Shown here: positions 2,282 through 36,416 of the stretch, one piece after another
Layout of the letters: every line of letters begins with the position of its first letter
How positions within the stretch are numbered: the stretch's first letter is position 1
Origin: Dehalococcoidales bacterium
Lineage (GTDB): Bacteria > Chloroflexota > Dehalococcoidia > Dehalococcoidales > RBG-16-60-22
Direction of reading: 5' to 3'
DNA: 64,000 nt
NCBI GenBank assembly: GCA_050014095.1
Contig: JBEKDZ010000004.1
Coordinates: 8,359-72,358, forward strand
Program-made: the position numbers and the translations under genes
The notes under the pieces: model-generated
Seen by the model: only the letters and a program-made list of their open reading frames with translations
Databases searched by the model: none
What the model was told of the DNA's origin: nothing

Positions 2282-2304
2282 TAGAGTCTCTAAAAAGACT
2301 CTAC
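2281..2304 (-). terminator. Hairpin overlapping the fdhA stop codon; possible terminator in the convergent gap
   Basis: GTAGAGTC-N8-GACTCTAC is a perfect 8-bp stem, followed on the minus strand by the 2256-2281 hairpin. No strong U-tract. Confidence 0.35.
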
Positions 2305-15089: not shown

Positions 15090-15173
15090 ACCTCCCACCT
15101 CCTATGCTCATTATCAGGATAGTCTTGGATGAGGCTAATTGAAATGACTTTTATCTCATTACGCCCGCACCTT

Positions 15174-16425: not shown

Positions 16426-16437
16426 ATTAATACCTCC

Positions 16438-16579: not shown

Positions 16580-16603
16580 GCAATATTCAGTTGTGTTCAC
16601 ATT

Positions 16604-17021: not shown

Positions 17022-18188
17022 CTATTGTTTGCTTTTTAACAGCGGCGACATTGCCCGTAAGTTGGCAACGATCGAAGTTAGAGCAGTGATTACCTGTTCT
17101 ATCTCGTCTTCCGTCGTCCACTTGCCCAAAGTAAAGCGTAGCGAACCGTGCGCTTGTTCATGTGAGCAACCGGTAGCCAGCAAGACATGGGACGGCTCCA
17201 GGCTACCCGAACTGCAGGCGGAGCCGGTGGAAGCCGCGATGCCCTGCATATCCAGGTTCAGTAGCATCGATTCACCTTCAATAAAACTGACGCTGATATT
17301 GACATTATTGGGTAGCCTCTTTATCGGGTGCCCGTTTAAAGTAATATGGTCGATATGTTGCTGCAGCCCGGCGATAAATTTATCTCTCAAGCCGGTCAGC
17401 CGCATAGCTTCTTCATCCATTTCGCGGCGGGCAATTGCCGCCGCCGCACCGAAGCCAACGATGCCGGGAGTATTTTCCGTGCCGGACCGCCGGCCTTTCT
17501 CCTGGCCGCCGCCATGTATAAAGGCGCTTATTTTTGTCCCTTTCCGGATATAAAGCGCCCCTACGCCCTTGGGACCGTAAAGCTTATGAGCAGAAATGGA
17601 AAGCAAATCCACCCCCAACTCGTTAACGTCTACCGGTATATGACCAACCGTCTGCACGGCGTCAGTATGAAAATAGACTCCTGCCTCATGGGCAATTTTA
17701 CCAATTTCAGCCACCGGCTGGATTGTGCCAATCTCATTGTTAGCGTGCATCACGGAGATAAGAATGGTTTTGGGCGTAATAGCTTTTTTTACATCGGCGG
17801 GGTCGACAATGCCGTACTTGTCCACCGGCAGATAAGTGACCTTAAAACCACTTTTTTCAAGGAACTTGCACGTTTCCAGCACGGCATGGTGTTCAATAGC
17901 GGTGGTGATGATATGGTTGCCCTTACTCTCGTTAGCATAACATACGCCCTGCAAGGCAAAGTTATCCGCCTCGGTGCCGCCGCTGGTGAAAACTATCTCT
18001 TCATCGCTAGCGCCGATAAGCCCGGCGACATTAGCTCTGGCTTTCTCGATAGCCTCTCTGGCTTCTTGCCCGAATGAATGAATGCTCGACGGGTTGCCGA
18101 AGGCATCGGTAAAGTACGGCAGCATCGCCTGTAAAACATCAGAGTGCACCGGCGTCGTTGCCGCATAGTCGAGATATATTCTATTCAT
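17022..18188 (-). CDS. nifS: Cysteine desulfurase NifS/IscS type (copy 2)
   Basis: Collinear with copy 1 (SGGTEADN, HANNEIG, SISAHKLYGPKG, STGSACSS). Confidence 0.9.
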   Translation of the reverse strand: MNRIYLDYAATTPVHSDVLQAMLPYFTDAFGNPSSIHSFGQEAREAIEKARANVAGLIGASDEEIVFTSGGTEADNFALQGVCYANESKGNHIITTAIEHHAVLETCKFLEKSGFKVTYLPVDKYGIVDPADVKKAITPKTILISVMHANNEIGTIQPVAEIGKIAHEAGVYFHTDAVQTVGHIPVDVNELGVDLLSISAHKLYGPKGVGALYIRKGTKISAFIHGGGQEKGRRSGTENTPGIVGFGAAAAIARREMDEEAMRLTGLRDKFIAGLQQHIDHITLNGHPIKRLPNNVNISVSFIEGESMLLNLDMQGIAASTGSACSSGSLEPSHVLLATGCSHEQAHGSLRFTLGKWTTEDEIEQVITALTSIVANLRAMSPLLKSKQ

Positions 18189-18262: not shown

Positions 18263-19486
18263 TTAGGCTAACGTCTCTATCTGGCGTTCTTCCAAACTCT
18301 TGATAGCTATACCCGCCTCCACCCCAGGTAAAAGCGTGACCGGCTCGGTCAGGGTAAACTCGCCCTTTTGTATCCAGGATTTTAGCATTTGGGCAATCTC
18401 CACCGCCTTAGGATAGCTGGAAAGCGACGATGTGGGCACTTTCTTGCCTTTCACCTCTATCGTGCCGGTCTTGAGTTGGGCGTAGCTGACCTCTCCCAGC
18501 GTATCCGGTTTACGCTGCGGGTATACCTCGGAATAGTCCACGATAGGCGCGAAGATATCGGCGTCCGTAACCGTTGTGAACTTAAGGATTTCCTCGGACA
18601 GTATCGGAATGGGCACACCGATGCCGACAACCATGCTGGCACCGTAGCCCTGCATGCTGATGCCTCTAAGCCAGGCAGACTTCATCTGCTTCAGGTCGCC
18701 GATGACCGCTAGCGTACCGGCGGGCTTACGCGGCACGCCGTTCTCCCCCCTCGGCACGCCTGGATTATGCTGGGTGCCCTGCCAGGCAACGTAGCCCACG
18801 CCCCCGCCTAGAAATATCTTCGTCCCGATGCCGATGGTCTTATAAAGCGGGTCGTTAAGCAGCGGCGAAAGCTGCCCGGCGCTGCAATAGTTGGCATTCC
18901 CTAAAATGGGCTTCAAAACGCCCATGTAGGTATAAATCGTTTTACTTGATAGATTCACCGCCACGTTGTAATTCTGGTAGGCGTTGCGGGGATTGAAAAG
19001 CACCGCTTCATTAATGTCTTTGAGATTAATCAGTGTTTCCAGTTTCTTTTTCGGATAGCAGTCCGTGCCGTAAGCGGAGGCGACCAAGCGCACATTCTTG
19101 CCGCTGACCAGCTCCTCGATAACATGTCCGCCGCCATACCGAAACTCGCCGGGATGTACCCGGTTCCTGGGGTCATCATCCGGCAAAGCCGTGCAGCCGA
19201 TAAGAATATCCACGGCAGCAAAGCCGGTGTAAACAGGTACATCATTAAGGTAAGCCCGCCCACCGCCGATTTTGATACGCGGTTTAGTGTGCCCCACGTT
19301 AAGGTAGGCGCCCGAGGAACACATCGGGCCGAAAGTGCCGGTGGTCACCACGTCCACGTCGCGGGCGGCTTTCGCGAGCCCTTTCTCTTTAGCGATATCG
19401 ATTATCTCTTCGGCAGTAGCGACTACCGCCTGACCTTTTTTTATTTTTTCATTGATTTCCGCAATTGTTTTCATCAAATACGTCAC
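18263..19486 (-). CDS. COG1900/DUF39 homocysteine-biosynthesis (sulfur-incorporation) protein, MA1821-like
   Basis: VVTTGTFGPMCSSGAYLNVGHTKPRIK...YLNDVPVYTGFAAVDILIG...RYGGGHVIEELV is the family signature as I recall it. No fused or adjacent NIL-ferredoxin partner is seen. Confidence 0.7.
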   Translation of the reverse strand: MTYLMKTIAEINEKIKKGQAVVATAEEIIDIAKEKGLAKAARDVDVVTTGTFGPMCSSGAYLNVGHTKPRIKIGGGRAYLNDVPVYTGFAAVDILIGCTALPDDDPRNRVHPGEFRYGGGHVIEELVSGKNVRLVASAYGTDCYPKKKLETLINLKDINEAVLFNPRNAYQNYNVAVNLSSKTIYTYMGVLKPILGNANYCSAGQLSPLLNDPLYKTIGIGTKIFLGGGVGYVAWQGTQHNPGVPRGENGVPRKPAGTLAVIGDLKQMKSAWLRGISMQGYGASMVVGIGVPIPILSEEILKFTTVTDADIFAPIVDYSEVYPQRKPDTLGEVSYAQLKTGTIEVKGKKVPTSSLSSYPKAVEIAQMLKSWIQKGEFTLTEPVTLLPGVEAGIAIKSLEERQIETLA

Positions 19487-19572
19487 CTTTCAGAGTTTAT
19501 TTTTCCATTAAATAAGCCCTTCCGGGCGACGCATGGTCCATAATAAATTCATCTTATCACCTCAAAAACATT

Positions 19573-20577
19573 CTATTTATTCGGTACAGGCTCCTGGAAA
19601 AGCCAGGTGGAAAGATAGCGCTCGCCGGTATCCGGCAGGATAACTACGACGAGTTTACCTTTGTTTTCCGGTCGCTGCGCCACTTTGACCGCCGCCCAAA
19701 CTGCCGCTCCGGAAGATATACCCGCTAAAATCCCTTCCTCACGCGCCAGCCGTTGGGCGGTAATGCCTGCGTCCTCGTTAGACACAGTTATGATTTCATC
19801 AATAAGGTCTCTGCGAAGGACATCGGGGACAAAGCCAGCGCCGATGCCCTGGATTTTGTGCGACCCCGCTTTACCTTGTGAAAGTACCGGGGAACCCTCC
19901 GGCTCAACCGCGATAGCCTTGAAGTCCGGTTTCCTGTCTTTTAAAACCTCGGCGATGCCGGTTAACGTGCCGCCCGTGCCGACGCCAGCGACTAAAATAT
20001 CCGCCCTGCCGTCCGTGTCCCTCCAGATTTCGTCGGCGGTGGTGAGGCGGTGGATTTCCGGATTGGCCGGATTCTTGAACTGCTGCGGTATAAAGTAGTT
20101 GCTGTTCTCCGCTGCCAGCTGCTCGGCTTTTTTAATCGCTCCAGTCATCCCCTCCGCCCCGGGGGTGAGAACCAGCTCGGCGCCGAAGATGGAAAGCAGC
20201 TGTCTCCTCTCCAGTGACATCGTTTCCGGCATGGTAAGGATAAGCCGGTAGCCCCTGACCGCGCAGACAAATGCCAGGGCGATGCCGGTATTGCCGCTGG
20301 TAGGCTCGACGATAACCGTGTCCTTTTTTATCCGTCCCTTAGCTTCAGCATCGGCAATCATCGCCACGCCGATACGGTCCTTAACGCTGCTGGCAGGATT
20401 GAAGAACTCCAGTTTGGCGACTACCTCCGCCTTAGCCCCATCGGTAACGCGATTTAGTCGTACCAGCGGTGTGTTGCCGATGAGTTCGGTGCAGTCCCCG
20501 GCGATGCCCCGTGTTAGCTTGGGTATTTTCACTGTTTTATAGGTTAAATATTCAATATCTTTGTTTCCCATCTTCAT
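19573..20577 (-). CDS. cysK: Cysteine synthase A (O-acetylserine sulfhydrylase), PLP-dependent
   Basis: [12 protein letters not shown]...[16 protein letters not shown]...[12 protein letters not shown]...[10 protein letters not shown]. Confidence 0.9.
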
Positions 20578-20583
20578 GCTCCC

Positions 20584-21027
20584 TTAGATGTAATACATCG
20601 ATGATTCCGGCAAGCCTTTCTTCTTTTGCCTTTCCACCAGGTCCTGCAGCGTGGTGGCTGCGAGGACTCCGTCCATCGCCTCTTTCATCTCGCCCCAGAC
20701 ATCGCGGGTAACACATTGTTTGGAGCGCTCGCAAACTTCAGGGTGGTCAACGCATTCCACCGGCGCTAACGACCCCTCCAGCAGTTGGGTAATTTCCAGC
20801 ATCGTAATATCCCGGGGTTTTTTGGCCAGGGTAATGCCCCCTTTAGGTCCCTTGATGCTGCGTACAATGCCGCCGGAAATCAAGGGGGCGATTAAATGCT
20901 CCAGGTATGCCAGGGAAATCTGCTGTCTGCCGGCGATGTCCTTAAGAAAGACTGGTCCCCACCCCTCACGGAGCGCCAGCTCTAAAAGGGCTCTAGTGCC
21001 ATAGCGCGTCTTGGTAGAAAGCTTCAT
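20584..21027 (-). CDS. Rrf2-family transcriptional regulator (IscR/CymR-like, three-Cys cluster motif)
   Basis: MKLSTKTRYGTRALLELA...ISLAYLEHLIAPL, with Cys ligand candidates in CVDHPEVCERSKQC. First gene of the sulfur cluster. Confidence 0.85.
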   Translation of the reverse strand: MKLSTKTRYGTRALLELALREGWGPVFLKDIAGRQQISLAYLEHLIAPLISGGIVRSIKGPKGGITLAKKPRDITMLEITQLLEGSLAPVECVDHPEVCERSKQCVTRDVWGEMKEAMDGVLAATTLQDLVERQKKKGLPESSMYYI

Positions 21028-21709: not shown

Positions 21710-21762
21710 ACATTAAGTATTTTAGAAGTGGTAATACACCAAGAAGCGGGAGGTGACTAACT

Positions 21763-22104
21763 ATGGAGAACCAGATAAAATATTATGACGAGACTGCTAA
21801 ATACAGGGACAAGTTCGACATAGGACTGCCGGAGGCAATGAAAACATATTCTGCCTTCAGGAAAGAAGTATATCGAGACGGAGCGCTCAGTCTCAAGACC
21901 AAGCGGCTTATCGCCTTGGCAGCCGGATTCATGGCAGGGTGCACCAGGTGTATCATCGGGCAAACTAAAGACGCCGTAAAAGCCGGAGCTACCAAAGCTG
22001 AAATCATGGAAACTGTGGCCGTCGCGATTGTCATGGGAGGTACCGCCGTTAGCGCCGAGTCATGGCGCGTGGTCAAAGTGCTGGAAGAGCTTGGCAAGTG
22101 GTAG
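21763..22104 (+). CDS. Carboxymuconolactone decarboxylase / AhpD-like family protein
   Basis: ALSLKTKRLIALAAGFMAGCTRCIIGQTKDAVKAGAT has the CxxC motif and helical core typical of the CMD family. Confidence 0.75.
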   Translation: MENQIKYYDETAKYRDKFDIGLPEAMKTYSAFRKEVYRDGALSLKTKRLIALAAGFMAGCTRCIIGQTKDAVKAGATKAEIMETVAVAIVMGGTAVSAESWRVVKVLEELGKW

Positions 22105-22133
22105 CAACTCACCGAGACTGGCCAATCAGCTTA

Positions 22134-22571
22134 CTAGCCTCCAGCTACTTGAAGTCGGCACCAAGCATATAAGGAATCATATACTTCGAATTGACGTGCC
22201 AGGTTCTCTTCGTCGTCGGGATAGCGTAGGCTATAACCAACGGCGATCGCTTCCAGCCCACGGGCAATCGGGTCCTTATCGATATCGGGGGCAACATCAG
22301 CGGAGTGAACTACTTTAGCCATCCGCAGCAACGCCGGGTCTTTCAGTTCGTATTTTATAATAATGGACTCGAACGAGCAGCGGCCTTCATGATGATCCAG
22401 CTCTGCCTGACCCATTGCGTCAAAAAGAATAGCCCCAGTCTTTTCCGCGACTGCTTTAACCTGGCTGGCTGGAGCAAAGAGAAACTCCGCTTCGTTATCA
22501 ACAAAGCGGCTGATGAGCCAGGGACAGGCAACCCTATCAACGTGAACGTGTGAACGTGTAATCCATTTCAT
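22134..22571 (-). CDS. ChrB C-terminal-domain (chromate resistance) family protein
   Basis: MKWITRSHVHVDRVACPWLISRFVD. Start ATG 22571 behind an AAGGAGG RBS is preferred over 22607. Confidence 0.65.
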   Translation of the reverse strand: MKWITRSHVHVDRVACPWLISRFVDNEAEFLFAPASQVKAVAEKTGAILFDAMGQAELDHHEGRCSFESIIIKYELKDPALLRMAKVVHSADVAPDIDKDPIARGLEAIAVGYSLRYPDDEENLARQFEVYDSLYAWCRLQVAGG

Positions 22572-22675
22572 GATTTTGCCTCCTTTTCTGATGAGCTTGA
22601 TTAGCATTATATATCATTATTGCCCGCTGTCAAATTTTGATAATTACCACATAAATAAAGTAGAATTACTTTTTA

Positions 22676-23872
22676 ATGAGGATTAAATTTTCTCCTTTTA
22701 TCCTGCTTTGTATTATGGGCGGCCTGGCCATCTTCAGTTCGACCATGGCCAAGAATCCGGCTTTACCCCTGTTCATCCGCTCTATGGGGGTGGACGTGTC
22801 TACCCTGGGCTTTATCGCGGCGGCGTCGACGGTCGTAGGTATTGTTGTCAGCCTGCCCGCCGGCATTCTCTCCGACCTTATCGGGCGCCGCCGGGTGATA
22901 CTGATAGCCGCCGTTGTGTTTGCCACCGCCCCCTTTTTATACCTTATTATCAATGCTCCCTGGCAATTGGTCCTGGTACGCATCTATCACGGATTAGCCA
23001 CCGCCATCCTGGGCCCGGTTGCTATGGCGGTGGTTGCCGATACCTTTGAAAAAGGGCGCGGCGAACGCATGGCATGGTATTCATCAGCCACCATGGTAGG
23101 ACGATTTATCGCTCCATTTGTGGGCGGCCTTCTCATTTTCGGCGATAATTTCTATTGGGTATACCTAGCGGACGGACTTGCCGGGGTAATGACTCTCCTG
23201 GCGGCCATCCGGTTGCCATTGGCTACCAACACCTCTGGCTCCGCCTGGCAAACTTTAAAACAACGGCGGGGTACATACGGGCAGGAGATTGCCTTTGTTT
23301 TTCGCCACCCAGGCATTCTGGCTACGAGCGGTATCGAGGCCGTACAATATTTCGCCTATGGCTGCCTGGAAACGTTTATACCGGTCTATTTAAACGAGAC
23401 ACTCGGTTATTCAGCCTGGGAGATAGGCCTATTATTTACCGTTCAAATATTGGCAGCTACGTTTACTAAACCCATAATGGGGCGTCTGTCCGACCGCTAC
23501 GGGCGCGTGCCGCTAATTTCCGCCGGGCTAGTGCTGGGAGGAATGACCACCGCCACTTTAATCCTCTCCTCCAACTATCTGGTAATCGTCGTACTGATAG
23601 CTATCTTCGGACTGGGGTTAGCCACCGTCACAGCTTCCACCTCTGCCCTGGTGGCAGATTTATCCCGCGCCCAGGGGCGGGGAAGCGCCCTGGGAATACT
23701 TTCCAGCATCATGGATATTGGCCAATCAACCGGCCCTATGGTAGCCGGAGCGCTGATTACCGCTTCTTCATATCAGATGACTTTCGGAATCGTAGGTGCT
23801 GCACTGGTCGTCATCAGCCTAGTTTACTGGCTTGGCATGCGGTGGATTACTAGTCGTCTAAAGACGAACTAA
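22676..23872 (+). CDS. MFS transporter
   Basis: About 12 predicted hydrophobic helices and the MFS loop motif GILSDLIGRRRV / GRLSDRYGR. Confidence 0.85.
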   Translation: MRIKFSPFILLCIMGGLAIFSSTMAKNPALPLFIRSMGVDVSTLGFIAAASTVVGIVVSLPAGILSDLIGRRRVILIAAVVFATAPFLYLIINAPWQLVLVRIYHGLATAILGPVAMAVVADTFEKGRGERMAWYSSATMVGRFIAPFVGGLLIFGDNFYWVYLADGLAGVMTLLAAIRLPLATNTSGSAWQTLKQRRGTYGQEIAFVFRHPGILATSGIEAVQYFAYGCLETFIPVYLNETLGYSAWEIGLLFTVQILAATFTKPIMGRLSDRYGRVPLISAGLVLGGMTTATLILSSNYLVIVVLIAIFGLGLATVTASTSALVADLSRAQGRGSALGILSSIMDIGQSTGPMVAGALITASSYQMTFGIVGAALVVISLVYWLGMRWITSRLKTN

Positions 23873-23931
23873 TATAGTGGATACCAACACACGAATTATA
23901 TAAATAGCGAAAAATATGAAGGAGTTATATC

Positions 23932-24360
23932 ATGCCCAGGACCAAATACGATAAATACATTACATCAGAAGTATTGTACAAAGACCCTAAAAATCCTAAC
24001 GCGAGTGTAACCAGCACGCGTCACCTGGGGGATAAATGGGGCGGAGGCCACCTGTCTATTGATACCATTTACGTTACCCATCCCCACGTGATGATATCCC
24101 AGCCGCATAAGCATGAGTTCCCTCAATACTTAAGCTTTTTCTCTGCCAACCCAAAAGACTCTAAAGACTTTGACGCGGAGATAGAGATAACGCTGGGGGA
24201 GGAGCAGGAAAAACACATTATCAAGTCACCTTCATCCGTATATGTTCCCACCGGATTATTGCACGGCCCCATCAACTTCGCCAAGATAAACAAACCGCTG
24301 TTGTTTATAGATATTGCCGTGACGGGCAAGTATTCCAGGGTGGGCAATACGCCGGACTAA
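23932..24360 (+). CDS. Cupin-fold hypothetical protein
   Basis: Cupin motif 1-like PHKHEFPQYLSF and motif 2-like VYVPTGLLHGPINF. Confidence 0.5.
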   Translation: MPRTKYDKYITSEVLYKDPKNPNASVTSTRHLGDKWGGGHLSIDTIYVTHPHVMISQPHKHEFPQYLSFFSANPKDSKDFDAEIEITLGEEQEKHIIKSPSSVYVPTGLLHGPINFAKINKPLLFIDIAVTGKYSRVGNTPD

Positions 24361-24373
24361 AGGGGAAAAGGTA

Positions 24374-24402
24374 GGAGGGGGCATAACCCCCTCCCCTTTT
24401 TT
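24374..24402. terminator. Bidirectional rho-independent terminator (cupin gene / SPFH operon)
   Basis: GGAGGGGG-CATAA-CCCCCTCC stem followed by a T-run. On the other strand an A-rich/U-rich context is present. Confidence 0.75.
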
Positions 24403-24418
24403 CTACAGTAATACCTGT

Positions 24419-25285
24419 TTACTTTTCCGTCTTTTTGGCGGTCGTCACACCGGCTAAATCCCCAATAACGTTCACCAGGCTCTGGCCAGATGGCAAGACA
24501 ATTTTAGCATTAGACGACAGGGATTTCTCGACGGCTTCCAGTTTCCGTAGCAGTTGCGCATTACCAATGAAGTACTGGTTGGCTGCCTCGTTCACCAGCT
24601 TGATTGCCTGCGCCTCACCTTCGGCGCGCAGAATATTCGCCTGTCTGGCGCCCTCGGCGACTTTGATAGCCGCCCTTCTTTCACCGTCCGCCTTGGTCTC
24701 GGTGGCGGTGGCAAAGTCCTGCGCAGCCACCTTCTGGTTGCTAGCGACGACGACGCTGTTCATCACTTCCTGCACCGCGGTCGGGGGCTCGATTTCCTTT
24801 AGCTCCGTCCGAACGATTTCAATACCCCAGTTCGCCGTTTCTTTGGCCAGCTGTTCGTAAAGCTCTCTATTAATTTTATTACGGTCGCTATTGGCTTCCT
24901 TAAGGGTCATTGTGCCGATGATGTTACGCAGCGTGGTCTTAGCCAGGGCGACAATCTGCTCGCGGTAGTTAAAGACGCCGTAGACCGATTTTTTAACGTT
25001 CTCTTCCTCCGTCTTGACCTTGAAGTAGACGTTGGAGTCCACCGAGGCGTTAAGACTATCGGCGGTGATAATTTCACGTTTTTCAGAGCTGACCATCATT
25101 TCCGTAATATTGACCCTGACCAGTCGCTCAATACCAAAGGGAAGCAGAAAGAGAAGTCCCGGGCTGGCGAACCGGTTGTATTTACCGAACCGCTCCACCA
25201 GGCCGCGTTCGGTAGGCCGGACCGTCCTTAACGAGATTAGAAGAATGAATAGCACTACACCAATGACGATATAAATCCAGTACAT
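24419..25285 (-). CDS. SPFH/Band-7 (stomatin/prohibitin-like) membrane protein
   Basis: N-terminal TM helix, then VRPTERGLVERFGKYNR...GLLFLLPFGIE and an Ala/Glu-rich coiled C-terminus. Confidence 0.85.
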   Translation of the reverse strand: MYWIYIVIGVVLFILLISLRTVRPTERGLVERFGKYNRFASPGLLFLLPFGIERLVRVNITEMMVSSEKREIITADSLNASVDSNVYFKVKTEEENVKKSVYGVFNYREQIVALAKTTLRNIIGTMTLKEANSDRNKINRELYEQLAKETANWGIEIVRTELKEIEPPTAVQEVMNSVVVASNQKVAAQDFATATETKADGERRAAIKVAEGARQANILRAEGEAQAIKLVNEAANQYFIGNAQLLRKLEAVEKSLSSNAKIVLPSGQSLVNVIGDLAGVTTAKKTEK

Positions 25286-25316
25286 CTTTTTACCCCCTGT
25301 ATTATTATATGCTTTT

Positions 25317-27002
25317 CTAATACCTTAGGTAATTGGGCACGATGTTCTTGTATTTCTTAACCAGCTGCGCCCAATTCTTCGGCAGCTCAACTTTTATCGT
25401 CACCGGATTAGGCCCGCCCTGCATAAGGCCCATCCACGACCCGAACCCACCGAAAACGAATATTTGAACGGGGTCGGGGTCGCGCGGGCTCGGCACCAGA
25501 ATAGCATTTTTATTAGCCGCACCGGTAATAACGACATTGCCGCGGTCGAAGGGTTTACTGTCGTCTAAGCCCAACCTCTTATAGTATCCGTCAGGCACGA
25601 CGGCGTTCTTCACGATAAAGTCTTTGACGGCTTTTTTTCTCCAGCCATCCTTCGCCAGTGAACCGGCGTTGGTAGGCGTTAGCAGTACCGCGAACATGCC
25701 CATACGAGCGGGCACGATGCTGCCCACCACCGTCGCCAGTATGCCTTTAGCGTCGGTGCCGAAGGGCATCATCTGCTGGAAGGACTGCGGAAACATAAGG
25801 GAAATGGCACTATCTTCTTTTTTAAAGCCTCGCTCGACATGCAGCGGCTCCCAGGGACTGTTCTCTTCGTTTTCCGCCGCCACAAAGGAGTATTTGCCGG
25901 GGTTGCCCAGCACGCCCATATCCTCGATTTGCTTGCGGATGCCACGGATGTTTTTAGTTATCAATCCCATCGCCCGCCCGATTGATGCGTTAGCGATATC
26001 CCCCGGACTGGTGGCGCCATAGGTCGAGCGCACGTTTATATCCTTAGCGATAGGCCCATTAATGAGCCAGAAAGGAGCGAACGAGCCGGTGCTCGCCGCC
26101 ATCATGCCGCAGACCGGGTTAGACGCCAGGGCATGCACGCCGGCGATGAGTAGCGGCATATAGGTCGGCAGGCAGCCTGCCATAACGGCGTTAATGGCGA
26201 TTTTTTCAATGGTGGCTTTGCCCAGGCGCGGCTCCAGCTTCTCCACCAGATGGTCAGCGGGGAAGTCGGTGCCGGTCATCATCTCCGCCACTGCTTCTTC
26301 GGTGGGAGGGATAATGGGGAGTCCGTCCGTCCAGCCGCGCTGGTAGAAGAACTGGTTGACCTCCGCCAGCGTGCCCTTGAAAATAAGGCGCGTGGGGTTC
26401 TCTGCTTCCCGGCGCTTGGGCGCTTTCTCCTCGTCGGTCAACGGCTTTGTCAATACGGCGACGACGTTATTGAATACCGCTTTGACAGCGGCTACGATAT
26501 CCTCCACGACGGTCGACTCGGAGACGATGGTCTCCGGCACAATCCTTATCACCGGCATGCCTTTGCTGGATGCCGCGGACATGGCGTCGTTATGAAAATG
26601 CTCGAAGACGTAGGTGGCAGTCGGCTTGCCCTTGCCCTCGATATAAATTGCGTCGTACACAAGGTACTTGGTGCATGCCCCTCAGTCGCCGACGGCGGCG
26701 ATAACCGCATCCACCCCCTTTAGCCAGTCGTTAAACTCCCCTTCCCTGTCCTTTTCCAGGGAGGAAACGGAGAACGACCGGGCGAAAAACTTGGTGATAG
26801 ACACGGAAGGGAATTTTTCATTAATCAGCTTCTCCGTGACGTCGAGGATAAGCGTAGCGGCGCGTTTGTTGTTGCATAGCAGACCTATTTTCTTGCCGTC
26901 CAGCTTATCCAGTCGCGGCGAAAGACCCTTTAACTGAACGGGGTCGGCTTCCGCCCAGGGACTTAGTACTTCATAAGTAGGAGTTGCTTTTTCTGCACTC
27001 AT
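25317..27002 (-). CDS. Candidate selenoprotein: ORFs 26682..27002 and 25317..26660 fused through an in-frame UGA (U-G-A-C motif; UGSC-family-like)
   Basis: Same frame. The junction reads ...GVDAVIAAVGD-UGA-GACTKYLVYDAIYIEGK. There is only a 21-nt gap, with no RBS and no in-frame ATG for the downstream part (the track start is a GTG). A good RBS (AAGGAAG) precedes only ATG 27002. The genome demonstrably decodes Sec (fdhA). Confidence 0.6.
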
Positions 27003-27064
27003 ATTGATACTTCCTTTTCTCCAGTAATAAGTATAAAAAATATCCCATCTTTAAGGACAGAATG

Positions 27065-27379
27065 TCAGGACTTTGTTTGGCCGATAAACGACTGCATTAA
27101 AATTTTCCCATCTCGGATGTGAAATGTGTCACCACCGAATAGGACCGCCGGAACCGCCGACCAGAGGACGTAGGCATATTCTCCATAAATTTCTTGCCTG
27201 ATGGTCTTCATGTTAGCTATCACTTCGGGTGTATATATAGTTATTATTCTTGAAAAACTCGCTCGTATACTATTGAGTCCTTTCTGAGACAAGCGCTTGT
27301 ACATGGTTTTGTAATACCGCTTCAATTGCTCCTGTAGCCATATAGACTCCTTTATATACTTATATTGATTCGCCCACAA
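27065..27379 (-). CDS. Hypothetical protein, possibly NTF2/SnoaL-like fold
   Basis: C-terminal GGDTFHIRDGKILMQSF resembles the SnoaL-like family ending. AT-richer than its neighbours (by eye). Confidence 0.35.
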   Translation of the reverse strand: MWANQYKYIKESIWLQEQLKRYYKTMYKRLSQKGLNSIRASFSRIITIYTPEVIANMKTIRQEIYGEYAYVLWSAVPAVLFGGDTFHIRDGKILMQSFIGQTKS

Positions 27380-27394
27380 TAGTAACTAATTTTT

Positions 27395-27676
27395 TTATCC
27401 GCCGGTCATTGGCACGAGCAGCGCAATGCGGTCGCCCGGGTGCAGCTCGAAGTTCTGACCGTCGAAGTAGAACTTACCGTTGATATTGAACTTGTACTGC
27501 TCGACGAGGCGGTCTTCTCCGGGGCGGATAACCCGTCCTTCCAATGAAGGTATTTGCTTTCTCATCGCGGCTATCACTTCCGGCATTGTCGCGCCGTCGC
27601 GCAGCTCCACTTCAACCTCGCGCAACTCCGTTATCTCGCGTGGGAGACCGTACATGGGTATAACGACTTTAAACAT
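27395..27676 (-). CDS. MoaD/ThiS-family ubiquitin-like sulfur-carrier protein (C-terminal Gly-Gly)
   Basis: 93 aa ending ...RIALLVPMTGG-stop. A beta-grasp-like pattern precedes it (INGKFYFDGQNFELHPGDRIALL). Confidence 0.7.
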   Translation of the reverse strand: MFKVVIPMYGLPREITELREVEVELRDGATMPEVIAAMRKQIPSLEGRVIRPGEDRLVEQYKFNINGKFYFDGQNFELHPGDRIALLVPMTGG

Positions 27677-27702
27677 ATTTCTATTTCCTCGATGGTTAAA
27701 TT

Positions 27703-27731
27703 ATTGTACCATCGTCGTATTTTCAGGTCAA
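27703..27731 (-). promoter_or_regulatory. Sigma-70-type promoter of the moaD-like/selenoprotein/SPFH unit
   Basis: On the minus strand: TTGACC (27726-31), exact 17-nt spacer, TACAAT (27703-08). A 7-bp inverted repeat CGATGGT-N11-ACCATCG (27690-27714) overlaps the -10. Confidence 0.6.
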
Positions 27732-32967: not shown

Positions 32968-33534
32968 ATGCCCGAAGCAAAAACGACGACGTTTATCGAT
33001 GAAATTTGCGCTATCCCCGGCGGGGAGGACATCAAGGTATGCATCCAGTGCGGCACCTGTACAGCTTCGTGCCCCACCGCCGATAGGATGGATTGTTCCC
33101 CTTCCCACCTAATAGCCATGGCTCGGGCAGGCATGCGGGAGGAGGTACTATCCGCCAATAGCATGTGGCTTTGCCTATCCTGCTACTTATGCGTGGTACG
33201 GTGCCCCAGGGATATTAAAATAACCCGACTGATGCACGTCCTGGAGAGCCTATCCGCCCGCAGCCGTTTAAGCAACAAACGCACCACCACGCCGAGGATG
33301 TATAAGGGCTTCAATAAATTCATCATCAGAGGTGGGCGGATATCCGAGCTCTGGATGATGGTCGGCTACTATCTACGCACTAATCCGTTGAAAGCGCTGG
33401 GGATGCTTCCTATAGCGGTCAGTCTATTCCTGCACAAACGCATATCGCTCAAAATAGATAAAATGAAGCCGGAGGGTATCAAGCAGCTTAATGCCATCAT
33501 CGACAAAGCGGAGTCTTCAGGAGGTACCTGGTGA
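32968..33534 (+). CDS. hdrC: Heterodisulfide reductase subunit C
   Basis: Two CxxCxxCxxxCP motifs: CIQCGTCTASCP and CLSCYLCVVRCP. Confidence 0.85.
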   Translation: MPEAKTTTFIDEICAIPGGEDIKVCIQCGTCTASCPTADRMDCSPSHLIAMARAGMREEVLSANSMWLCLSCYLCVVRCPRDIKITRLMHVLESLSARSRLSNKRTTTPRMYKGFNKFIIRGGRISELWMMVGYYLRTNPLKALGMLPIAVSLFLHKRISLKIDKMKPEGIKQLNAIIDKAESSGGTW

Positions 33535-34406
33535 AACAATATTCTTACTTTCCGGGGTGCGGTCTCTCACCTGAAGGCTTCGGCAGGGCATTTGACTGGT
33601 CAATTAAAGGGGTTAATAAGGTTCTGGATTTAGAATTTAAAGAAATCCCCGATTGGAACTGCTGCGGCACCGTCCCTTACGATACTCTTCATGAGCATGC
33701 TTCTTTTGCCGTCTGCGCCCGCAACCTTGCCCTCGCAGAACAAATCGGGGGCGATTTAGTAGCGCCGTGCAGTTCCTGCTACGTGTTTTTAAGTCGTACC
33801 AACCAGTATATTCATGAATACGCCAAAGTAAAAAAGGAAGTTGAAGATGCTTTAGCCGCCGGCGGCCTCGCCTACCATGGCAAAGTCAAGGTGCGCAAGG
33901 TGCTCGATGTTTACGTTAATGATGTCGGCTACGACGTTATCGCGGCTAAAGTGAAAAAGAGTCTGGAGGGCCTTAAAGTAGCCTGCTACTACGGCTGCCA
34001 GGAGGTGCGCCCCATTTTTGGCCGCGACCACCCGGAAAATCCTAAATATATGGATAAGCTGGTCAAAGCATTAGGCGCCGAAGCCGTTAATTTCCCACTA
34101 AAGAGCGCCTGCTGCGGCGGTTCGCTCATCATCTCCGAGGAAGACGCATCGCTTGAGCTGATTAAAAAACTGCTGGATTCTGCCGTGAGCAACGGGGCGG
34201 AGGTTATGATTACCGGCTGCCCGCTATGCCAGTTGAACGTGGACGCTTACCAGGCGATGGTAAACCGGAAATATAAGACCGACTATCATTTGCCCATCCT
34301 GTTCTTTACCCAGTTGATGGGCGTGGCTTTCGGTCTCGATGAAAAAGACCTGGGACTTAAAACCAGTATCGTGCCGGTGAAAAAGGCTCTGGCGAAATTT
34401 ATTTAA
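33531..34406 (+). CDS. hdrB: Heterodisulfide reductase subunit B (two CCG domains)
   Basis: NCCGTVPY and ACCGGSLI CCG motifs, plus CPLCQLN. Confidence 0.85.
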   Translation: MKQYSYFPGCGLSPEGFGRAFDWSIKGVNKVLDLEFKEIPDWNCCGTVPYDTLHEHASFAVCARNLALAEQIGGDLVAPCSSCYVFLSRTNQYIHEYAKVKKEVEDALAAGGLAYHGKVKVRKVLDVYVNDVGYDVIAAKVKKSLEGLKVACYYGCQEVRPIFGRDHPENPKYMDKLVKALGAEAVNFPLKSACCGGSLIISEEDASLELIKKLLDSAVSNGAEVMITGCPLCQLNVDAYQAMVNRKYKTDYHLPILFFTQLMGVAFGLDEKDLGLKTSIVPVKKALAKFI

Positions 34407-34415
34407 GGAGTAGAA

Positions 34416-36416
34416 ATGGCGCCAAAAATCGGTGTTTATATTTGCCACTGCGGCAGCAATATCGCCGGCATCGTGGACTGCTCTAAAGTTACCGAGTTCG
34501 CCCGCGGTCTGCCCAATGTAGCTGTGGCGCGTGACTATAAATACATGTGTTCCGACCCCGGCCAGAACCTGATTAAAGAAGATATTAAAAAACTGGGCCT
34601 TAATCGCGTCGTCGTCGCTTCCTGCTCGCCGCGGATGCACGAGCCTACTTTCCGCCGCGCCTGCCAGGATGCCGGACTTAACCAGTACCTTTTTGAAATG
34701 GCAAATATTCGCGAGCAGTGCTCCTGGGTACACGTCGATAAAGAAATGGCGACGGAAAAAGCCAAAGCCCTGGTCAGTGCTGCCGTCCACCGCGTTGCCT
34801 TACAGGAGCCGCTGGAAACTAAAGAGGTAGCCATGAACCCGTGCACGTTGGTCATCGGCGGAGGGGTGGCGGGTATCCAGGCGGCTTTAGAAATTGCCGA
34901 TGCCGGCCACAAGGTCTACCTTTTGGAAAAAGAGCCCAGCATCGGCGGCCATATGGCGATGTTCGATAAAACCTTCCCCACCCTGGACTGCGCCGCCTGT
35001 ATTTTAACGCCCAAGATGACCAGCGTCGGGCAGAACCACAATATCGAGCTGCTGGCTTATAGCGAACTAGTCGAGCTTTCCGGCTATATCGGCAATTTCA
35101 AGGCTAAAATCAAGAAAAAGGCGAGGTATATCGATACGGTCAAATGCACCGGCTGCGGGCGCTGCTCGGAGCTCTGCCCCACCTCCCTACCCAATGAGTT
35201 CGACTGCGGCCTTGGCCAGCGTAAAGCTATCTATATCCCCTCCCCTTACGCCGTCCCTAATAAAGCCATCATCGACGCGAAAAACTGCCTTCATCTTAAG
35301 GGTAAAGCGAACGGCAAAGACGTCTGCCGTTTATGCCAGAAAGGCAACGAGAAGAAAGGTTTAGTCGGCTGCGAGGCGGAGGCGATAGACTTCGACCAGA
35401 AAGACGAAATGGTGGAGATTGAAATCGGTAATATCATCGTCGCCACCGGCTTCCAGCAGTTCGACCCCGCCAAGATATACCAACTCGGCTACGGCCGCTT
35501 GAATAATGTTTTCACCAGTTTAGAGTTCGAAAGGCTGACCAACGCTTCCGGTCCTACCAGCGGCAGGGTGTTGCTCAAAGATGGCTCCGAGCCGAAAACC
35601 ATCGCCATTTTGCACTGCATCGGCAGCCGTGATGCTAACTACCATAAATATTGCTCGCGGGTCTGCTGCATGTACTCGCTTAAATTCGCCCACCTGCTGC
35701 GGGAAAAGCTGCCGGAGGCGGCCGTGTACCAGCTCTATATTGATATGCGCTGCGCCGGCTCCGGCTACGAGGAGTTCTACGAGCGCCTGCAGGAGGAAGG
35801 GGTAAACTTTATCCGCGGCAAGGCTGGCGAGGTTACCGATTTAGCCGAAAGCCCAGAAGAAAAAGACAGGCTTGTCGTTATGGTGGAAGATACACTGGTA
35901 CGTCGCAAGCGGCGCCTACCCGTGGATATGGTTATCCTGAGCTGCGCCCTGGAGCCCCGCCCCGATACCGAACAGCTCGCCAGGATTTTGACTTTGAGTC
36001 GTAAGGCTGACGGCTTCTTCCTGGAAAAACACCCCAAGCTCGACCCCGTCGCCACCACCACGGACGGCGTCTATATCGTCGGCTGCTGCCAGAGTCCCAA
36101 AGATATACCGGATACCGTCGCCCAGGCATCGGCAGCGGCGGCACGGGTGCTGGCGCTCATCAGTAAGGGCAAGGTAGAGATAGAAGCCGCCATTGCCAAC
36201 ATCGACGAAGAAAAATGCTCCGGCTGTAAAATCTGTATCGACCTCTGCCCGTATAAAGCCATCAGTTTCGATGAAGAAAAGAAGGTCTCCCGTGTTAACG
36301 AGGCGCTTTGCAAGGGCTGTGGCACCTGCGTGGCGGCCTGCCCCAGCGGCGCCATTAAAGGCAGGCATTTTACCACCGAGGAAATTATGGCGGAAATCGA
36401 GGGGGTACTGGCATGA
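34416..36416 (+). CDS. hdrA: Heterodisulfide reductase subunit A (FAD, multiple Fe-S)
   Basis: IGVYICHCGSNIAG, dinucleotide fold VIGGGVAGIQAALE, and C-terminal CSGCKICIDLCP / CKGCGTCVAACP. Confidence 0.9.
   Translation: MAPKIGVYICHCGSNIAGIVDCSKVTEFARGLPNVAVARDYKYMCSDPGQNLIKEDIKKLGLNRVVVASCSPRMHEPTFRRACQDAGLNQYLFEMANIREQCSWVHVDKEMATEKAKALVSAAVHRVALQEPLETKEVAMNPCTLVIGGGVAGIQAALEIADAGHKVYLLEKEPSIGGHMAMFDKTFPTLDCAACILTPKMTSVGQNHNIELLAYSELVELSGYIGNFKAKIKKKARYIDTVKCTGCGRCSELCPTSLPNEFDCGLGQRKAIYIPSPYAVPNKAIIDAKNCLHLKGKANGKDVCRLCQKGNEKKGLVGCEAEAIDFDQKDEMVEIEIGNIIVATGFQQFDPAKIYQLGYGRLNNVFTSLEFERLTNASGPTSGRVLLKDGSEPKTIAILHCIGSRDANYHKYCSRVCCMYSLKFAHLLREKLPEAAVYQLYIDMRCAGSGYEEFYERLQEEGVNFIRGKAGEVTDLAESPEEKDRLVVMVEDTLVRRKRRLPVDMVILSCALEPRPDTEQLARILTLSRKADGFFLEKHPKLDPVATTTDGVYIVGCCQSPKDIPDTVAQASAAAARVLALISKGKVEIEAAIANIDEEKCSGCKICIDLCPYKAISFDEEKKVSRVNEALCKGCGTCVAACPSGAIKGRHFTTEEIMAEIEGVLA

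What the first reader, a model, noticed from the sequence alone, without database searches (positions are those of the whole stretch)
24374..27731. Promoter-to-terminator four-gene unit: Gly-Gly sulfur carrier, NTF2-like protein, UxxC selenoprotein, SPFH scaffold
A clean TTGACC-17-TACAAT promoter (27703-27731) and a strong terminator (24374-24402) delimit four tightly spaced genes: moaD/thiS-like (ends in GG), a small NTF2-like protein, the 561-aa candidate selenoprotein and a stomatin/prohibitin-like membrane protein. No E1-like adenylating enzyme (MoeB/ThiF) is present. The large domain of the selenoprotein (GWTDGLPIIPPTEE...) matches no family I can name. A ubiquitin-like thiocarboxylate carrier combined with a redox-active Sec protein, possibly anchored at SPFH microdomains, is a plausible but undescribed sulfur/selenium transfer system.
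Basis: inference. Interest (0 to 1): 0.65.

Follow-up and report, generated by a model that had tools for sequence, protein, structure and literature searches.

The report
UGSC selenoprotein fusion gene cluster
The large gene is a real selenocysteine protein of the known but uncharacterised UGSC family, fused to an unnamed 370-residue partner domain that goes with UGSC across many phyla. The neighbouring ThiS-like and SPFH genes accompany it only in one order of Chloroflexi.

Summary
The sequence features are real. A conserved promoter (27703-27731) and a GC-rich hairpin (24374-24394) bracket, on the minus strand, a ThiS/MoaD-like gene ending in GG, a SnoaL/NTF2-like gene, a 561-codon gene with one in-frame TGA (26682-26684, motif GD-U-GAC-T), and an SPFH gene.

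Three corrections apply.
- The SnoaL gene is a pseudogene here, broken by a 68-nt deletion. It is absent from several close relatives.
- Residues 12-185 of the selenoprotein belong to the known UGSC family (Pfam PF24696). Only residues ~190-561 are unnamed.
- ThiS and SPFH are neighbours only in Dehalococcoidales-type relatives (ThiS 11 of 17 loci, SPFH 8 of 17). They occur in 0 of 74 loci from other phyla.

The conserved unit is UGSC plus the C-domain. They are fused or adjacent on the same strand at nearly every C-domain gene. All 77 stops at the UGSC site are TGA.

UGSC is predicted to be flavodoxin-like. It aligns weakly, but with Sec on Sec, to the Sec site of GrdB/PrdB. The C-domain has no PDB match by sequence or fold.

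My best reading is a two-domain Sec-dependent reductase of unknown substrate. A ThiS-Sec-SPFH sulfur/selenium relay is not supported as a general system.

The parts
27703..27731 (-). Sigma-70-type promoter TTGACC-17-(TG)GTACAAT upstream of the ThiS-like gene
   Evidence: Found by the scan. The hexamers and spacer block are invariant in L083-L086, while the upstream sequence is not alignable.
27395..27676 (-). ThiS/MoaD-like small protein, 93 aa, C-terminal ..PMTGG
   Evidence: Pfam ThiS E = 9.6e-10 (39.3 bits, cut-off 22.5). NCBIfam SAMP1 and MoaD_arch hits fall below their cut-offs. Present in 11 of 17 Dehalococcoidales-type loci and 0 of 74 others.
27065..27341 (-). SnoaL/NTF2-like pseudogene. 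The N-terminal 23 codons (ATG at 27339) and the C-terminal 72 codons lie in different frames, with the deletion junction at 27284/27285.
   Evidence: Three-frame translation. The intact 113-114-aa orthologues in L002 and L083 hit SnoaL_2 at 26.6 bits. blastn and tblastn show 68 nt missing relative to L083. The gene is absent in L084, L085, L086 and L091.
25317..27002 (-). 561-codon selenoprotein gene: UGSC domain fused to an unnamed C-domain
   Evidence: One in-frame TGA. 6271 homologues; the top 120 are all 413-451 aa (nearly all 443-451) post-TGA fragments called 'hypothetical protein'.
26448..26969 (-). UGSC domain (residues 12-185), predicted flavodoxin-like
   Evidence: Pfam PF24696 E = 1.5e-26 (94 bits, cut-off 25). 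NCBIfam NF041046 scores 76 bits, below its equivalog cut-off of 125. In the AF2 model of the Cys homologue P0130, this domain matches SsuE, lumazine synthase and RpiB.
26682..26684 (-). TGA read as selenocysteine (U107); the resolving Cys110 is at 26673-26675
   Evidence: 77 of 77 stops at this HMM position are TGA and are followed by G[SAGT][CS] (Cys in 75, Ser in 2); 3 homologues read through. Cys forms are P0130 and P0217.
26653..26669 (-). Candidate SECIS hairpin 15-31 nt after the UGA (GUAC-CUUGU-GUAC core)
   Evidence: 64% of cells are paired, 11 cells show a change on both sides, and 0 of 500 shuffles reach this. The single-sequence fold is not significant (z = -0.62). Suggestive only.
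25320..26435 (-). C-domain (residues ~190-561) with motifs GWTDGLPIIPPT, ATIEKIAINAVMAGC, NGP, AENEExSPWEP
   Evidence: No Pfam, NCBIfam or PDB sequence hit. AF2 pLDDT 91.3, pTM 0.90. Best Foldseek PDB hit has E = 1.4e-3 and TM 0.27-0.33. 4633 clusters (50% identity) match at E <= 1e-3.
24419..25285 (-). SPFH/Band 7 membrane protein, 288 aa, N-terminal hydrophobic helix
   Evidence: Pfam Band_7 E = 7.9e-35, HflK-like. Directly downstream of the selenoprotein only in relatives of 86-98% identity.
24374..24394 (.). GC-rich bidirectional terminator hairpin between convergent genes
   Evidence: 8-bp stem with 7 GC pairs; the T-run is on the + strand side. Conserved with compensating changes.
23932..24360 (+). 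142-aa protein with cupin-like motifs (my reading of the sequence), convergent with the unit and a recurrent neighbour
   Evidence: No Pfam or NCBIfam hit. Present in 8 of 17 close loci, and next to the module in Desulfatiglans (L008) and Acidobacteriota (L010).

Best explanation
**The functional unit.** The unit is the two-domain selenoprotein itself. An N-terminal UGSC domain (predicted flavodoxin-like alpha/beta) carries Sec107 and Cys110 (U-G-A-C) at the end of a beta-strand and the start of a helix. It works against a 370-residue C-domain of unknown fold.

**Proposed mechanism (inferred).**
- The C-domain supplies a pocket of conserved polar residues that binds a small-molecule substrate.
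- Sec attacks the bound substrate.
- The selenenyl-sulfide formed with Cys110 is then re-reduced by a cellular thiol system.
- This resembles the way the Sec/Cys pair of the protein-B selenoproteins of glycine, betaine, sarcosine and D-proline reductase works.
- The substrate is unknown.

**The neighbouring genes.** In this organism, a Dehalococcoidales bacterium that also has a Sec-containing FdhA, the gene is transcribed from a conserved promoter together with a ThiS-like gene upstream and an SPFH gene downstream. Those two genes, and the decayed SnoaL gene, are lineage-specific companions. They are not defining parts of the system.

**Shown:** the Sec site, domain identities, UGSC/C-domain coupling, and the clade-limited ThiS/SPFH linkage.
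**Inferred:** the composite active site and reductase chemistry.
For: **Sec site**
- TGA is at the same codon in 77 of 77 homologous UGSC genes that stop at that site, across many phyla, never TAA or TAG. Conservation continues downstream.
- CGSC and CGNC forms exist.
- FdhA in the window reads HCARL-U-HAP.

**Coupling of the two domains**
- A UGSC HMM hits 79 of 88 loci that were fetched through the C-domain.
- Nearly every C-domain gene has UGSC fused to it or within a few hundred nt on the same strand, either upstream or downstream.
- Tandem arrays of three to five modules occur in L020, L023 and L036.

**Composite active site**
- Eight of eight full-length variants with Ala, Gly, Phe or Val at the Sec position carry [WY][TSC]CS in a C-domain loop. 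Seven of them keep the second Cys; P0155 (VPSS) has lost it too.
- Sec and Cys forms have [AVT]-S-T-G-S in that loop. The new Cys aligns with window Ala303.
- The full-length model has pTM 0.85.

**Resemblance to GrdB/PrdB**
- Weak NCBIfam hits recur to GrdH, GrdF, GrdB, PrdB and TIGR01918 (E = 0.005-0.1; 5e-5 for P0223).
- hhalign of the UGSC profile against GOS GrdB/PrdB sequences aligns VDxV-..-U-x-x-C-helix-E..G.PTV in register (P = 3.8e-4, probability 36%).
- UGSC has the highest Sec:Cys ratio of the major GOS families (255:21; PMC2398784).

**Fold**
- UGSC is predicted flavodoxin-like, not thioredoxin-like.
- The C-domain model is confident but has no PDB neighbour.

**Clade-limited neighbours:**
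Against: - The link to GrdB/PrdB is weak. Every family hit is below its cut-off, the hhalign probability is 36%, and part of the score comes from the U-to-C substitutions on both sides.
- No pyruvoyl-type partner (GrdE/PrdA) or GrdA-like carrier appears near any locus.
- No substrate can be named.
- No Cys is invariant in the C-domain. The AGC Cys is present in 141 of 169 sequences.
- I could not obtain model coordinates, so the distance from Sec to the C-domain loop was not measured.
- The 'Cys migration' probably reflects one clade, and so one evolutionary event.
- Within Dehalococcoidales, ThiS stays within 7 kb in most well-flanked loci. It lies directly upstream in relatives down to 77% identity. 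A real functional link in that lineage cannot be excluded.
- Whether every UGSC gene has a C-domain partner (the reverse direction) was not tested.
Confidence: 0.5

Rival explanations
1. ThiS-like thiocarboxylate carrier, Sec protein and SPFH scaffold together form a sulfur/selenium transfer system. The selenoprotein would load, reduce or unload the ThiS C-terminus at membrane microdomains.
For: - The genes are on the same strand, tightly spaced, with no internal terminator, behind a conserved promoter.
- In L084, L085 and L091 ThiS and UGSC are only 50-100 nt apart.
- ThiS is present in 11 of 17 Dehalococcoidales-type loci. It is directly upstream again at 77% identity (L089) and lies between two module copies in L006.
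- Sulfur-metabolism genes (two NifS, CysK, HcyBio, DsrE2-like) lie 3-14 kb away.
Against: - ThiS is found in 0 of 74 loci and SPFH in 0 of 74 loci outside that clade. A search for any 60-120-aa ORF ending in GG near the module found no carrier-like ORF there.
- L002, L004 and L088 lack ThiS within 6-8 kb.
- In L087 and L090 ThiS directly follows an AFOR gene, as MoaD-like genes often do.
- SPFH is adjacent only at 86% identity or more.
- No E1, JAMM or rhodanese gene is in the unit, and no E1 motif is in the window.
Confidence: 0.1
2. This is a generic thiol-disulfide oxidoreductase or antioxidant protein, as reviews assume for UxxC 'Trx-like' selenoproteins. The C-domain would be an accessory or targeting domain.
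For: The UxxC motif sits at a helix N-terminus. The literature groups UGSC with Trx-like redox proteins (PMC2398784 and PMC13188914).
Against: - The predicted fold is flavodoxin-like, not thioredoxin.
- The domain is near-obligately coupled to a large, highly conserved domain with invariant polar motifs.
- Cys forms are rare, unlike Trx and Prx families.
- Paralogue arrays sit next to transporters and catabolic enzymes.
Confidence: 0.2
3. The C-domain is the enzyme (for example a hydro-lyase, isomerase or amidohydrolase). UGSC would be a dedicated redox switch or activator that does not touch the substrate.
For: - The C-domain occurs as a separate protein in most phyla, with conserved Asp, Thr, Asn, Arg and Glu residues and no invariant Cys.
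- The faint fold hits are all enzymes acting on carboxylates or amides: class I fumarase, Toblerone-fold hydrolases and AroH.
Against: - The fold hits are not significant (TM <= 0.33).
- The near-absolute use of Sec, and the relocation of Cys into a C-domain loop when Sec is lost, point to direct participation in chemistry.
Confidence: 0.15
4. The TGA is a true stop, giving two separate genes (106 aa and 447 aa) and no selenoprotein.
For: All public gene calls split the gene in this way.
Against: - The two parts are in the same frame with conservation on both sides.
- All 77 stops are TGA.
- Full-length Cys and other read-through homologues exist.
- The Pfam UGSC model spans the TGA (residues 12-185).
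- The genome has another canonical Sec gene.
Confidence: 0.01

Closest known systems
UGSC family (seleno)protein (Pfam PF24696; NCBIfam NF041046; 'UGSC-containing protein' of Zhang and Gladyshev)
   Same: Residues 12-185 match the Pfam model well above its cut-off. The U-G-[SA]-C motif is at the same site. The family is predominantly Sec rather than Cys. Its function is unknown. A 'UGSC/Unknown_1' fusion was reported in 2008.
   Different: - The score is below the NCBIfam equivalog cut-off (76-80 bits against 125).
- The motif is UGAC rather than UGSC.
- The protein carries a 370-residue C-domain.
- I could not confirm that 'Unknown_1' is this domain, because the figure is held only as an image.
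Protein-B selenoproteins GrdB/GrdF/GrdH/PrdB of glycine, sarcosine, betaine and D-proline reductases (PF07355, TIGR01917/01918, TIGR04483)
   Same: The UxxC pair lies after a hydrophobic VDxV strand and before a helix followed by E..G.PTV. hhalign aligns it in register. Weak family hits recur. Cys homologues are rare.
   Different: - No family cut-off is reached.
- No GrdE/PrdA pyruvoyl proprotein and no GrdA, GrdC or GrdD is nearby.
- The partner is an unrelated C-domain.
- Many hosts are not Stickland fermenters.
ThiS/MoaD/SAMP ubiquitin-like sulfur carriers
   Same: The upstream 93-aa protein hits Pfam ThiS and ends in GG.
   Different: No E1, ThiG, MoaE or JAMM partner is in the unit or the window. 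NCBIfam SAMP1 and MoaD_arch hits are below their cut-offs. In two relatives the orthologue follows an AFOR gene.
SPFH/Band 7 (HflK/C, stomatin-like) membrane scaffolds
   Same: Clear Band_7 domain with an N-terminal hydrophobic helix.
   Different: No NfeD or FtsH partner was seen in the unit or in the annotated flanks of relatives. Linkage to the selenoprotein is confined to very close relatives.

Membership tests
UGSC family (PF24696 / NF041046) | Match to the Pfam family model above the gathering score | tested here: met
   94 bits against a cut-off of 25, residues 12-185 of the U-to-C sequence. 14 of 14 related domains also match.
UGSC family (PF24696 / NF041046) | Match to the NCBIfam equivalog model above its cut-off | tested here: not met
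   76-80 bits against a cut-off of 125. This is domain-level membership, not the standalone ~150-aa equivalog.
UGSC family (PF24696 / NF041046) | U/C-G-x-C motif at the conserved site, with TGA conserved among homologues | tested here: met
   The window has GD-U-GAC-T. 77 of 77 stops are TGA. CGSC and CGNC forms exist.
UGSC family (PF24696 / NF041046) | SECIS element downstream of the UGA | tested here: inconclusive
   A small hairpin with some compensatory changes. The single-sequence fold is not better than shuffles.
GrdB/PrdB protein-B selenoproteins | Match to the family models above their cut-offs | tested here: not met
   Only weak hits (E = 0.005-0.1; 5e-5 for P0223), far below the cut-offs. 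No Pfam GRDB hit.
GrdB/PrdB protein-B selenoproteins | UxxC Sec site in the same structural register | tested here: inconclusive
   hhalign aligns U to U and C to C over 53 columns, P = 3.8e-4 but probability 36%.
GrdB/PrdB protein-B selenoproteins | Adjacent pyruvoyl proprotein (GrdE/PrdA) and GrdA/GrdCD partners | tested here: not met
   None appears in the Pfam-annotated neighbours of 12 loci or in the neighbour clusters of 88 loci.
Thioredoxin-fold thiol oxidoreductases | Thioredoxin fold around the CxxC/UxxC motif | tested here: not met
   The AF2 model of P0130 shows a five-unit beta/alpha flavodoxin-like domain. Top PDB matches are SsuE, lumazine synthase and RpiB.
ThiS/MoaD sulfur carrier | ThiS family match and C-terminal Gly-Gly | tested here: met
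   Pfam ThiS 39.3 bits against 22.5; the protein ends ..PMTGG.
ThiS/MoaD sulfur carrier | Cognate E1-like adenylyltransferase (ThiF/MoeB/UbaA) in the locus | tested here: not met
   No ThiF motif in the six-frame translation of the window. None among the annotated neighbours of relatives. This was a motif test only; an E1 may lie elsewhere in the genome.
SPFH / Band 7 | Band_7 domain above the cut-off | tested here: met
   120.9 bits against 23.6.
SnoaL/NTF2-like | Intact reading frame with a SnoaL-like domain | tested here: not met
   The window copy is frameshifted by a 68-nt deletion. The intact orthologue scores 26.6 bits against a SnoaL_2 cut-off of 27.

The most novel reading that the evidence does not exclude
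UGSC plus the unnamed C-domain would be a widespread and so far unrecognised class of selenocysteine-dependent reductases. It is found in Chloroflexota, Desulfobacterota, Acidobacteriota, Methylomirabilota/Rokubacteria, Binatia, Burkholderiales, Actinomycetota and Poribacteria. It would be distantly derived from the GrdB/PrdB Sec module but paired with a substrate domain of new fold, and diversified into paralogues for different small molecules. In Dehalococcoidales it would additionally be wired to a ThiS-like carrier.
Probability: 0.3. Interest if true: 0.75.

Novelty: new member of a known kind. Interest (0 to 1): 0.5.

Why it matters
- UGSC has ranked among the most abundant selenoprotein families in aquatic metagenomes since the mid-2000s. 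It is still listed as uncharacterised in a 2026 review.
- This work shows that UGSC is almost always fused or adjacent to one specific partner domain. That domain is large, unnamed and highly conserved (4633 clusters at 50% identity).
- Loss of Sec in one clade is accompanied by a new Cys in the partner domain.
- The Sec site lines up with that of the GrdB/PrdB reductases.
- Together these points turn 'redox protein of unknown function' into a testable enzyme hypothesis with defined residues to mutate.
- The work also shows that the tidy-looking ThiS-Sec-SPFH operon is a feature of one lineage. It should not be taken as a new general sulfur/selenium relay.

Tried and rejected
**Searches on the C-domain that found nothing**
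- Pfam and NCBIfam scans of the C-domain and of nine diverse homologues, down to E = 1.
- PDB sequence search with the single sequence and with a 61-sequence profile.
- Foldseek of a confident C-domain model against the PDB: best E = 1.4e-3, TM 0.27-0.33 (class I fumarase alpha subunit, Toblerone-fold hydrolases, AroH). I rejected these as not significant.
- Source names for ten cluster representatives: all 'hypothetical protein' or unnamed.

**Searches on the UGSC domain**
- A PDB profile search gave only noise.
- Pfam gave no GRDB hit.

**Other dead ends**
- The single-sequence SECIS fold is not better than shuffles. Rfam reported no SECIS.
- A full-length model of the window protein could not be run. 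I modelled the Cys homologue P0130 instead.
- Figure S1A of PMC2398784 (UGSC/Unknown_1) is held only as an image.
- My greedy gene caller produced an artefact cluster of antisense ORFs in high-GC loci. I ignored it.
- I considered the AGC motif of the C-domain as a pyruvoyl-forming self-cleavage site. I rejected this because the Cys is Ala in 17% of members.

Full report
**1. What is in the sequence**

- The promoter scan reports TTGACC-17-TACAAT with a TG extension at 27731-27703.
  - The scan alone is not significant: it found 10 sites against 8.9 expected from shuffles.
  - The block AACGTTGACC...GATGGTACAAT is invariant in five related loci (L083-L086 and the window), while the DNA just upstream can no longer be aligned. 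I take this footprint as good evidence for a working promoter.
- The hairpin GGAGGGGG-CATAA-CCCCCTCC (24374-24394) lies between the convergent SPFH gene and a 142-aa gene on the plus strand. Its T-run is on the plus-strand side. Relatives keep it with compensating changes.
- No minus-strand terminator-like site lies inside the unit. The gaps between genes are 15, 62 and 31 nt.

**2. The four genes**

- **ThiS-like gene (27395-27676).** It encodes 93 aa ending in GG. Pfam ThiS gives E = 9.6e-10. The NCBIfam SAMP1 and MoaD_arch hits are below their cut-offs.
- **SnoaL/NTF2-like gene.** It is not intact here.
  - An ATG at 27339, preceded by AAGGAG, opens MATGAIEAVLQNHVQALVSERTQ*. The rest of the protein is in another frame.
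  - The intact 113-114-aa orthologues in L002 and L083 score 26.6 bits on SnoaL_2, against a cut-off of 27.
  - Against L083, which is about 96% identical in DNA, the window lacks 68 nt at 27284/27285.
  - The gene is absent altogether in L084, L085, L086 and L091. It is dispensable in this lineage.
- **Large gene (25317-27002).** It has one in-frame TGA at 26682-26684 in the context VIAAVGD-U-GACT.
- **SPFH gene (24419-25285).** It is a clear Band_7 protein with E = 7.9e-35.

**3. The TGA encodes selenocysteine**

- With U replaced by C, residues 12-185 match Pfam UGSC (PF24696) at 94 bits against a cut-off of 25, and the match spans the TGA. NCBIfam NF041046, 'UGSC family (seleno)protein', gives 76 bits, below its equivalog cut-off of 125.
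- In 88 related loci fetched from public genomes and metagenomes, a UGSC HMM breaks at the same position in 77 genes. All 77 stops are TGA, and all are followed by G-[SAGT]-[CS] (Cys in 75 of the 77). Three genes read through.
- Full-length homologues with CGSC or CGNC exist.
- A short hairpin 15-31 nt after the UGA keeps pairing through changes on both sides in the more distant sequences. In total 64% of cells are paired, and 0 of 500 shuffles reach this. The single-sequence fold is unremarkable, so I call the SECIS suggestive only.
- The same window carries a formate dehydrogenase gene with the canonical HCARL-U-HAP site (TGA at 4176-4178). The organism therefore decodes Sec.
- All public gene calls split the large gene into a fragment of about 106 aa and one of about 445 aa, labelled 'hypothetical protein'. 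The named hits are from Dehalococcoidales or Chloroflexi metagenome-assembled genomes.

**4. The C-terminal domain**

- Residues ~190-561 have no Pfam, NCBIfam or PDB sequence match, whether searched as a single sequence or as a 61-sequence profile.
- An exhaustive HMMER search finds 4633 clusters (50% identity) at E <= 1e-3. These fall into four forms:
  - standalone proteins of 340-375 aa;
  - post-TGA fragments of 430-460 aa;
  - full-length fusions of 550-620 aa;
  - multi-copy proteins.
- AlphaFold2 gives a confident model (pLDDT 91.3, pTM 0.90). Foldseek finds nothing in the PDB at E <= 1e-3. The best hit is a class I fumarase alpha subunit with TM 0.27-0.33, followed by Toblerone-fold amidohydrolases and AroH chorismate mutase. 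I treat the fold as unassigned.
- Conserved features are GWTDGLPxxPPT, ATxEKxAxNAVMAG[C/A]xP, NGP, a conserved Arg (Arg343 in ANASIGRA), and AENEExSPWEP.
- No Cys is invariant. The AGC Cys is present in 141 of 169 members.

**5. What is conserved around the gene**

Loci were fetched through the C-domain from one genome per GTDB species. More than 600 matches were found and 80 were kept. They come from Dehalococcoidia, Desulfatiglans, Acidobacteriota, Rokubacteria/Methylomirabilota, Binatia, Burkholderiales and other Betaproteobacteria, Poribacteria, Actinomycetota and others.

- A UGSC HMM hits 79 of 88 loci. Several of the nine misses are truncated right at the C-domain.
- For nearly every C-domain gene, the nearest UGSC is in one of three positions:
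  - in the same reading frame, as a fusion;
  - immediately upstream on the same strand;
  - immediately downstream on the same strand, often overlapping or within tens of bases.
- Arrays of three to five modules occur in L020, L023 and L036.
- Other neighbours vary. They include SDRs, TctC/Bug or SBP_bac_5/Opp transporters, luciferase-like oxidoreductases, family III CoA-transferases, enoyl-CoA hydratases, amidases and cupins.
- The conserved system is therefore UGSC plus the C-domain.

**6. ThiS, SPFH and SnoaL as partners**

Counts of loci that carry each neighbour:

| Neighbour | 17 Dehalococcoidales-type loci (>=69% identical C-domain) | 74 loci from other lineages |
|---|---|---|
| ThiS | 11 | 0 |
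| SPFH | 8 | 0 |
| SnoaL | 4 | 0 |
| 142-aa cupin-like protein | 8 | 2 |
| SDR | 8 | 14 |

- A search for any 60-120-aa ORF ending in GG within 3 kb of the module found nothing carrier-like in the 74 other loci.
- Inside the clade the arrangement drifts.
  - ThiS-UGSC/C-domain-SPFH is found at 86-98% identity (L083-L086, L091).
  - ThiS is directly upstream, with SPFH 2.8 kb away, at 77% identity (L089).
  - ThiS is 2-6 kb away, on the opposite strand in L001 and on the same strand in L087 and L090, in L001, L087 and L090. In L087 and L090 it directly follows an aldehyde:ferredoxin oxidoreductase gene.
  - ThiS is absent within 6-8 kb in L002, L004 and L088.
- In those more distant relatives the selenoprotein instead sits next to an Opp/Dpp-type ABC importer, an SDR and a MarR regulator.

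**7. How it probably works**

- The AF2 model of the Cys homologue P0130 (pLDDT 85, pTM 0.85) shows UGSC as a five-unit beta/alpha domain. The CGSC motif follows strand 3 and opens helix 3. The PDB neighbours are flavodoxin-like proteins: SsuE (target-normalised TM 0.53), lumazine synthase and RpiB. This is not a thioredoxin fold.
- UGSC domains give weak hits that all point to one family: GrdH, GrdF, GrdB, PrdB and TIGR01918 (E = 0.005-0.1, and 5e-5 for P0223).
- I took GrdB/PrdB-like sequences printed in Dataset S1 of PMC2398784 and aligned them. hhalign then aligned GVDAVIAAVGD-U-GACT...E.KGKPTA to DVDVVLLVPN-U-PVCH...E.NKIPTV, with U on U and C on C (P = 3.8e-4, probability 36%).
- The GOS counts are 255 Sec against 21 Cys for UGSC. 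That is the highest ratio among the major families. It fits chemistry that needs selenium rather than general thiol exchange.
- Eight of eight full-length variants that have Ala, Gly, Phe or Val in place of Sec carry [WY][TSC]-C-S in a C-domain loop. Seven keep the second Cys; one (P0155, VPSS) has lost it. Sec and Cys forms have [AVT]-S-T-G-S there, and the new Cys aligns with window Ala303.
  - This is probably one clade and so one event.
  - It is what one expects if that loop faces the Sec site.
- I infer a composite active site at the domain interface.
  - The C-domain binds a small substrate.
  - Sec107 attacks it.
  - Cys110 resolves the intermediate.
  - A cellular reductant recycles the pair.
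- The steps beyond 'Sec/Cys redox pair next to a conserved partner domain' are inference. No substrate can be named.

**8. Comparison with what is known**

- UGSC-containing proteins were described from Sargasso Sea and GOS data as a major selenoprotein family, suggested to have a Trx-like fold. A 'UGSC/Unknown_1' fusion was noted in 2008.
- Reviews from 2022 and 2026 still list the family without a function. A 2026 database paper does not mention it.
- The window gene is therefore a further member of a known but uncharacterised kind. It is not a new kind of system.
- As far as the papers I could search show, these points appear not to have been reported:
  - the near-obligate pairing with this specific domain across phyla;
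  - the predicted flavodoxin-like fold;
  - the in-register similarity to the GrdB/PrdB Sec site;
  - the Cys relocation.

**9. Verdict**

Two corrections apply: the SnoaL gene is a pseudogene, and the domain boundary is near residue 190.
- The interpretation as a ThiS-Sec-SPFH sulfur/selenium transfer system is not supported as a general system. It remains only a low-probability, lineage-specific possibility.
- Interest is moderate. It comes from the uncharacterised UGSC/C-domain module, not from the operon.

Noticed in passing
window 2301-5255 (-), TGA at 4176-4178: A formate dehydrogenase alpha-like gene (Fer2_4, Molybdop_Fe4S4, Molybdopterin, Molydop_binding) is split by one in-frame TGA in the canonical context VDHCARL-U-HAPTVAG. 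It is a second selenoprotein in the window.
   Followed up: partly
window 16477-16585 (-) and 15367-16446 (-); flanked by 13902-15098 (-) and 17022-18188 (-): A TPP riboswitch (66.6 bits) sits directly upstream of an AIRS-family gene. That gene matches HypE, ThiL and SelD models only below their cut-offs. It lies between two NifS-type cysteine desulfurase genes. This is an unusual riboswitch target.
   Followed up: partly
window 21715-23932: A 2.2-kb segment carrying CMD (carboxymuconolactone decarboxylase family), ChrB_C and MFS genes is present here and in L085. It is absent from the ~96%-identical relative L083, so it is an insertion or deletion polymorphism right next to the unit.
   Followed up: partly
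window 23932-24360 (+); also L008 9151-9837, L010 5598-6092, L087 9214-9639: The 142-aa protein convergent with the unit has cupin-like motifs (PHKHE...; P-T-G-L-L-H-G-P-I-N, my reading of the sequence) but no Pfam or NCBIfam hit. It recurs near the UGSC/C-domain module even in Desulfatiglans and Acidobacteriota, which makes it a more widely kept neighbour than ThiS or SPFH.
   Followed up: partly
proteins P0135, P0140, P0146, P0153, P0155, P0172, P0173, P0176 (position equivalent to window Ala303, nt 26094-26096): A clade of full-length fusions has lost Sec (Ala, Gly, Phe or Val instead) and gained a Cys in the C-domain loop before the NGP motif. Seven of the eight keep the second Cys of the UxxC pair. 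This looks like relocation of the catalytic nucleophile.
   Followed up: partly
window 18263-21027 (-) and 12803-13303 (-): A sulfur-metabolism block lies downstream of the unit: an Rrf2/CymR-like regulator, CysK, HcyBio (COG1900, homocysteine biosynthesis), and further on a DsrE2-like protein. It could be the real context of the ThiS-like carrier.
   Followed up: no
L020 5290-10795; L023 1-17016; L036 7407-16962: Groundwater Chloroflexi and a Betaproteobacterium carry three to five tandem UGSC/C-domain modules. All have TGA at the Sec site, which suggests paralogues diversified for different substrates.
   Followed up: no
window 32968-36416 (+): An HdrC/HdrB/HdrA-like trio (Fer4, CCG, FAD/Fer4) lies beyond the ABC exporter pair. 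This is inferred from the Pfam labels of the syntenic genes in L085 and L091. I did not check whether the HdrA-like gene contains Sec.
   Followed up: no
L006 (5.2-kb contig binned as Thermodesulfobacteriota): The locus carries two UGSC/C-domain copies with an SDR and a ThiS (E = 4e-43 to the window ThiS) between them. It looks Dehalococcoidales-like, so it may be horizontal transfer of the cluster or a binning error.
   Followed up: no
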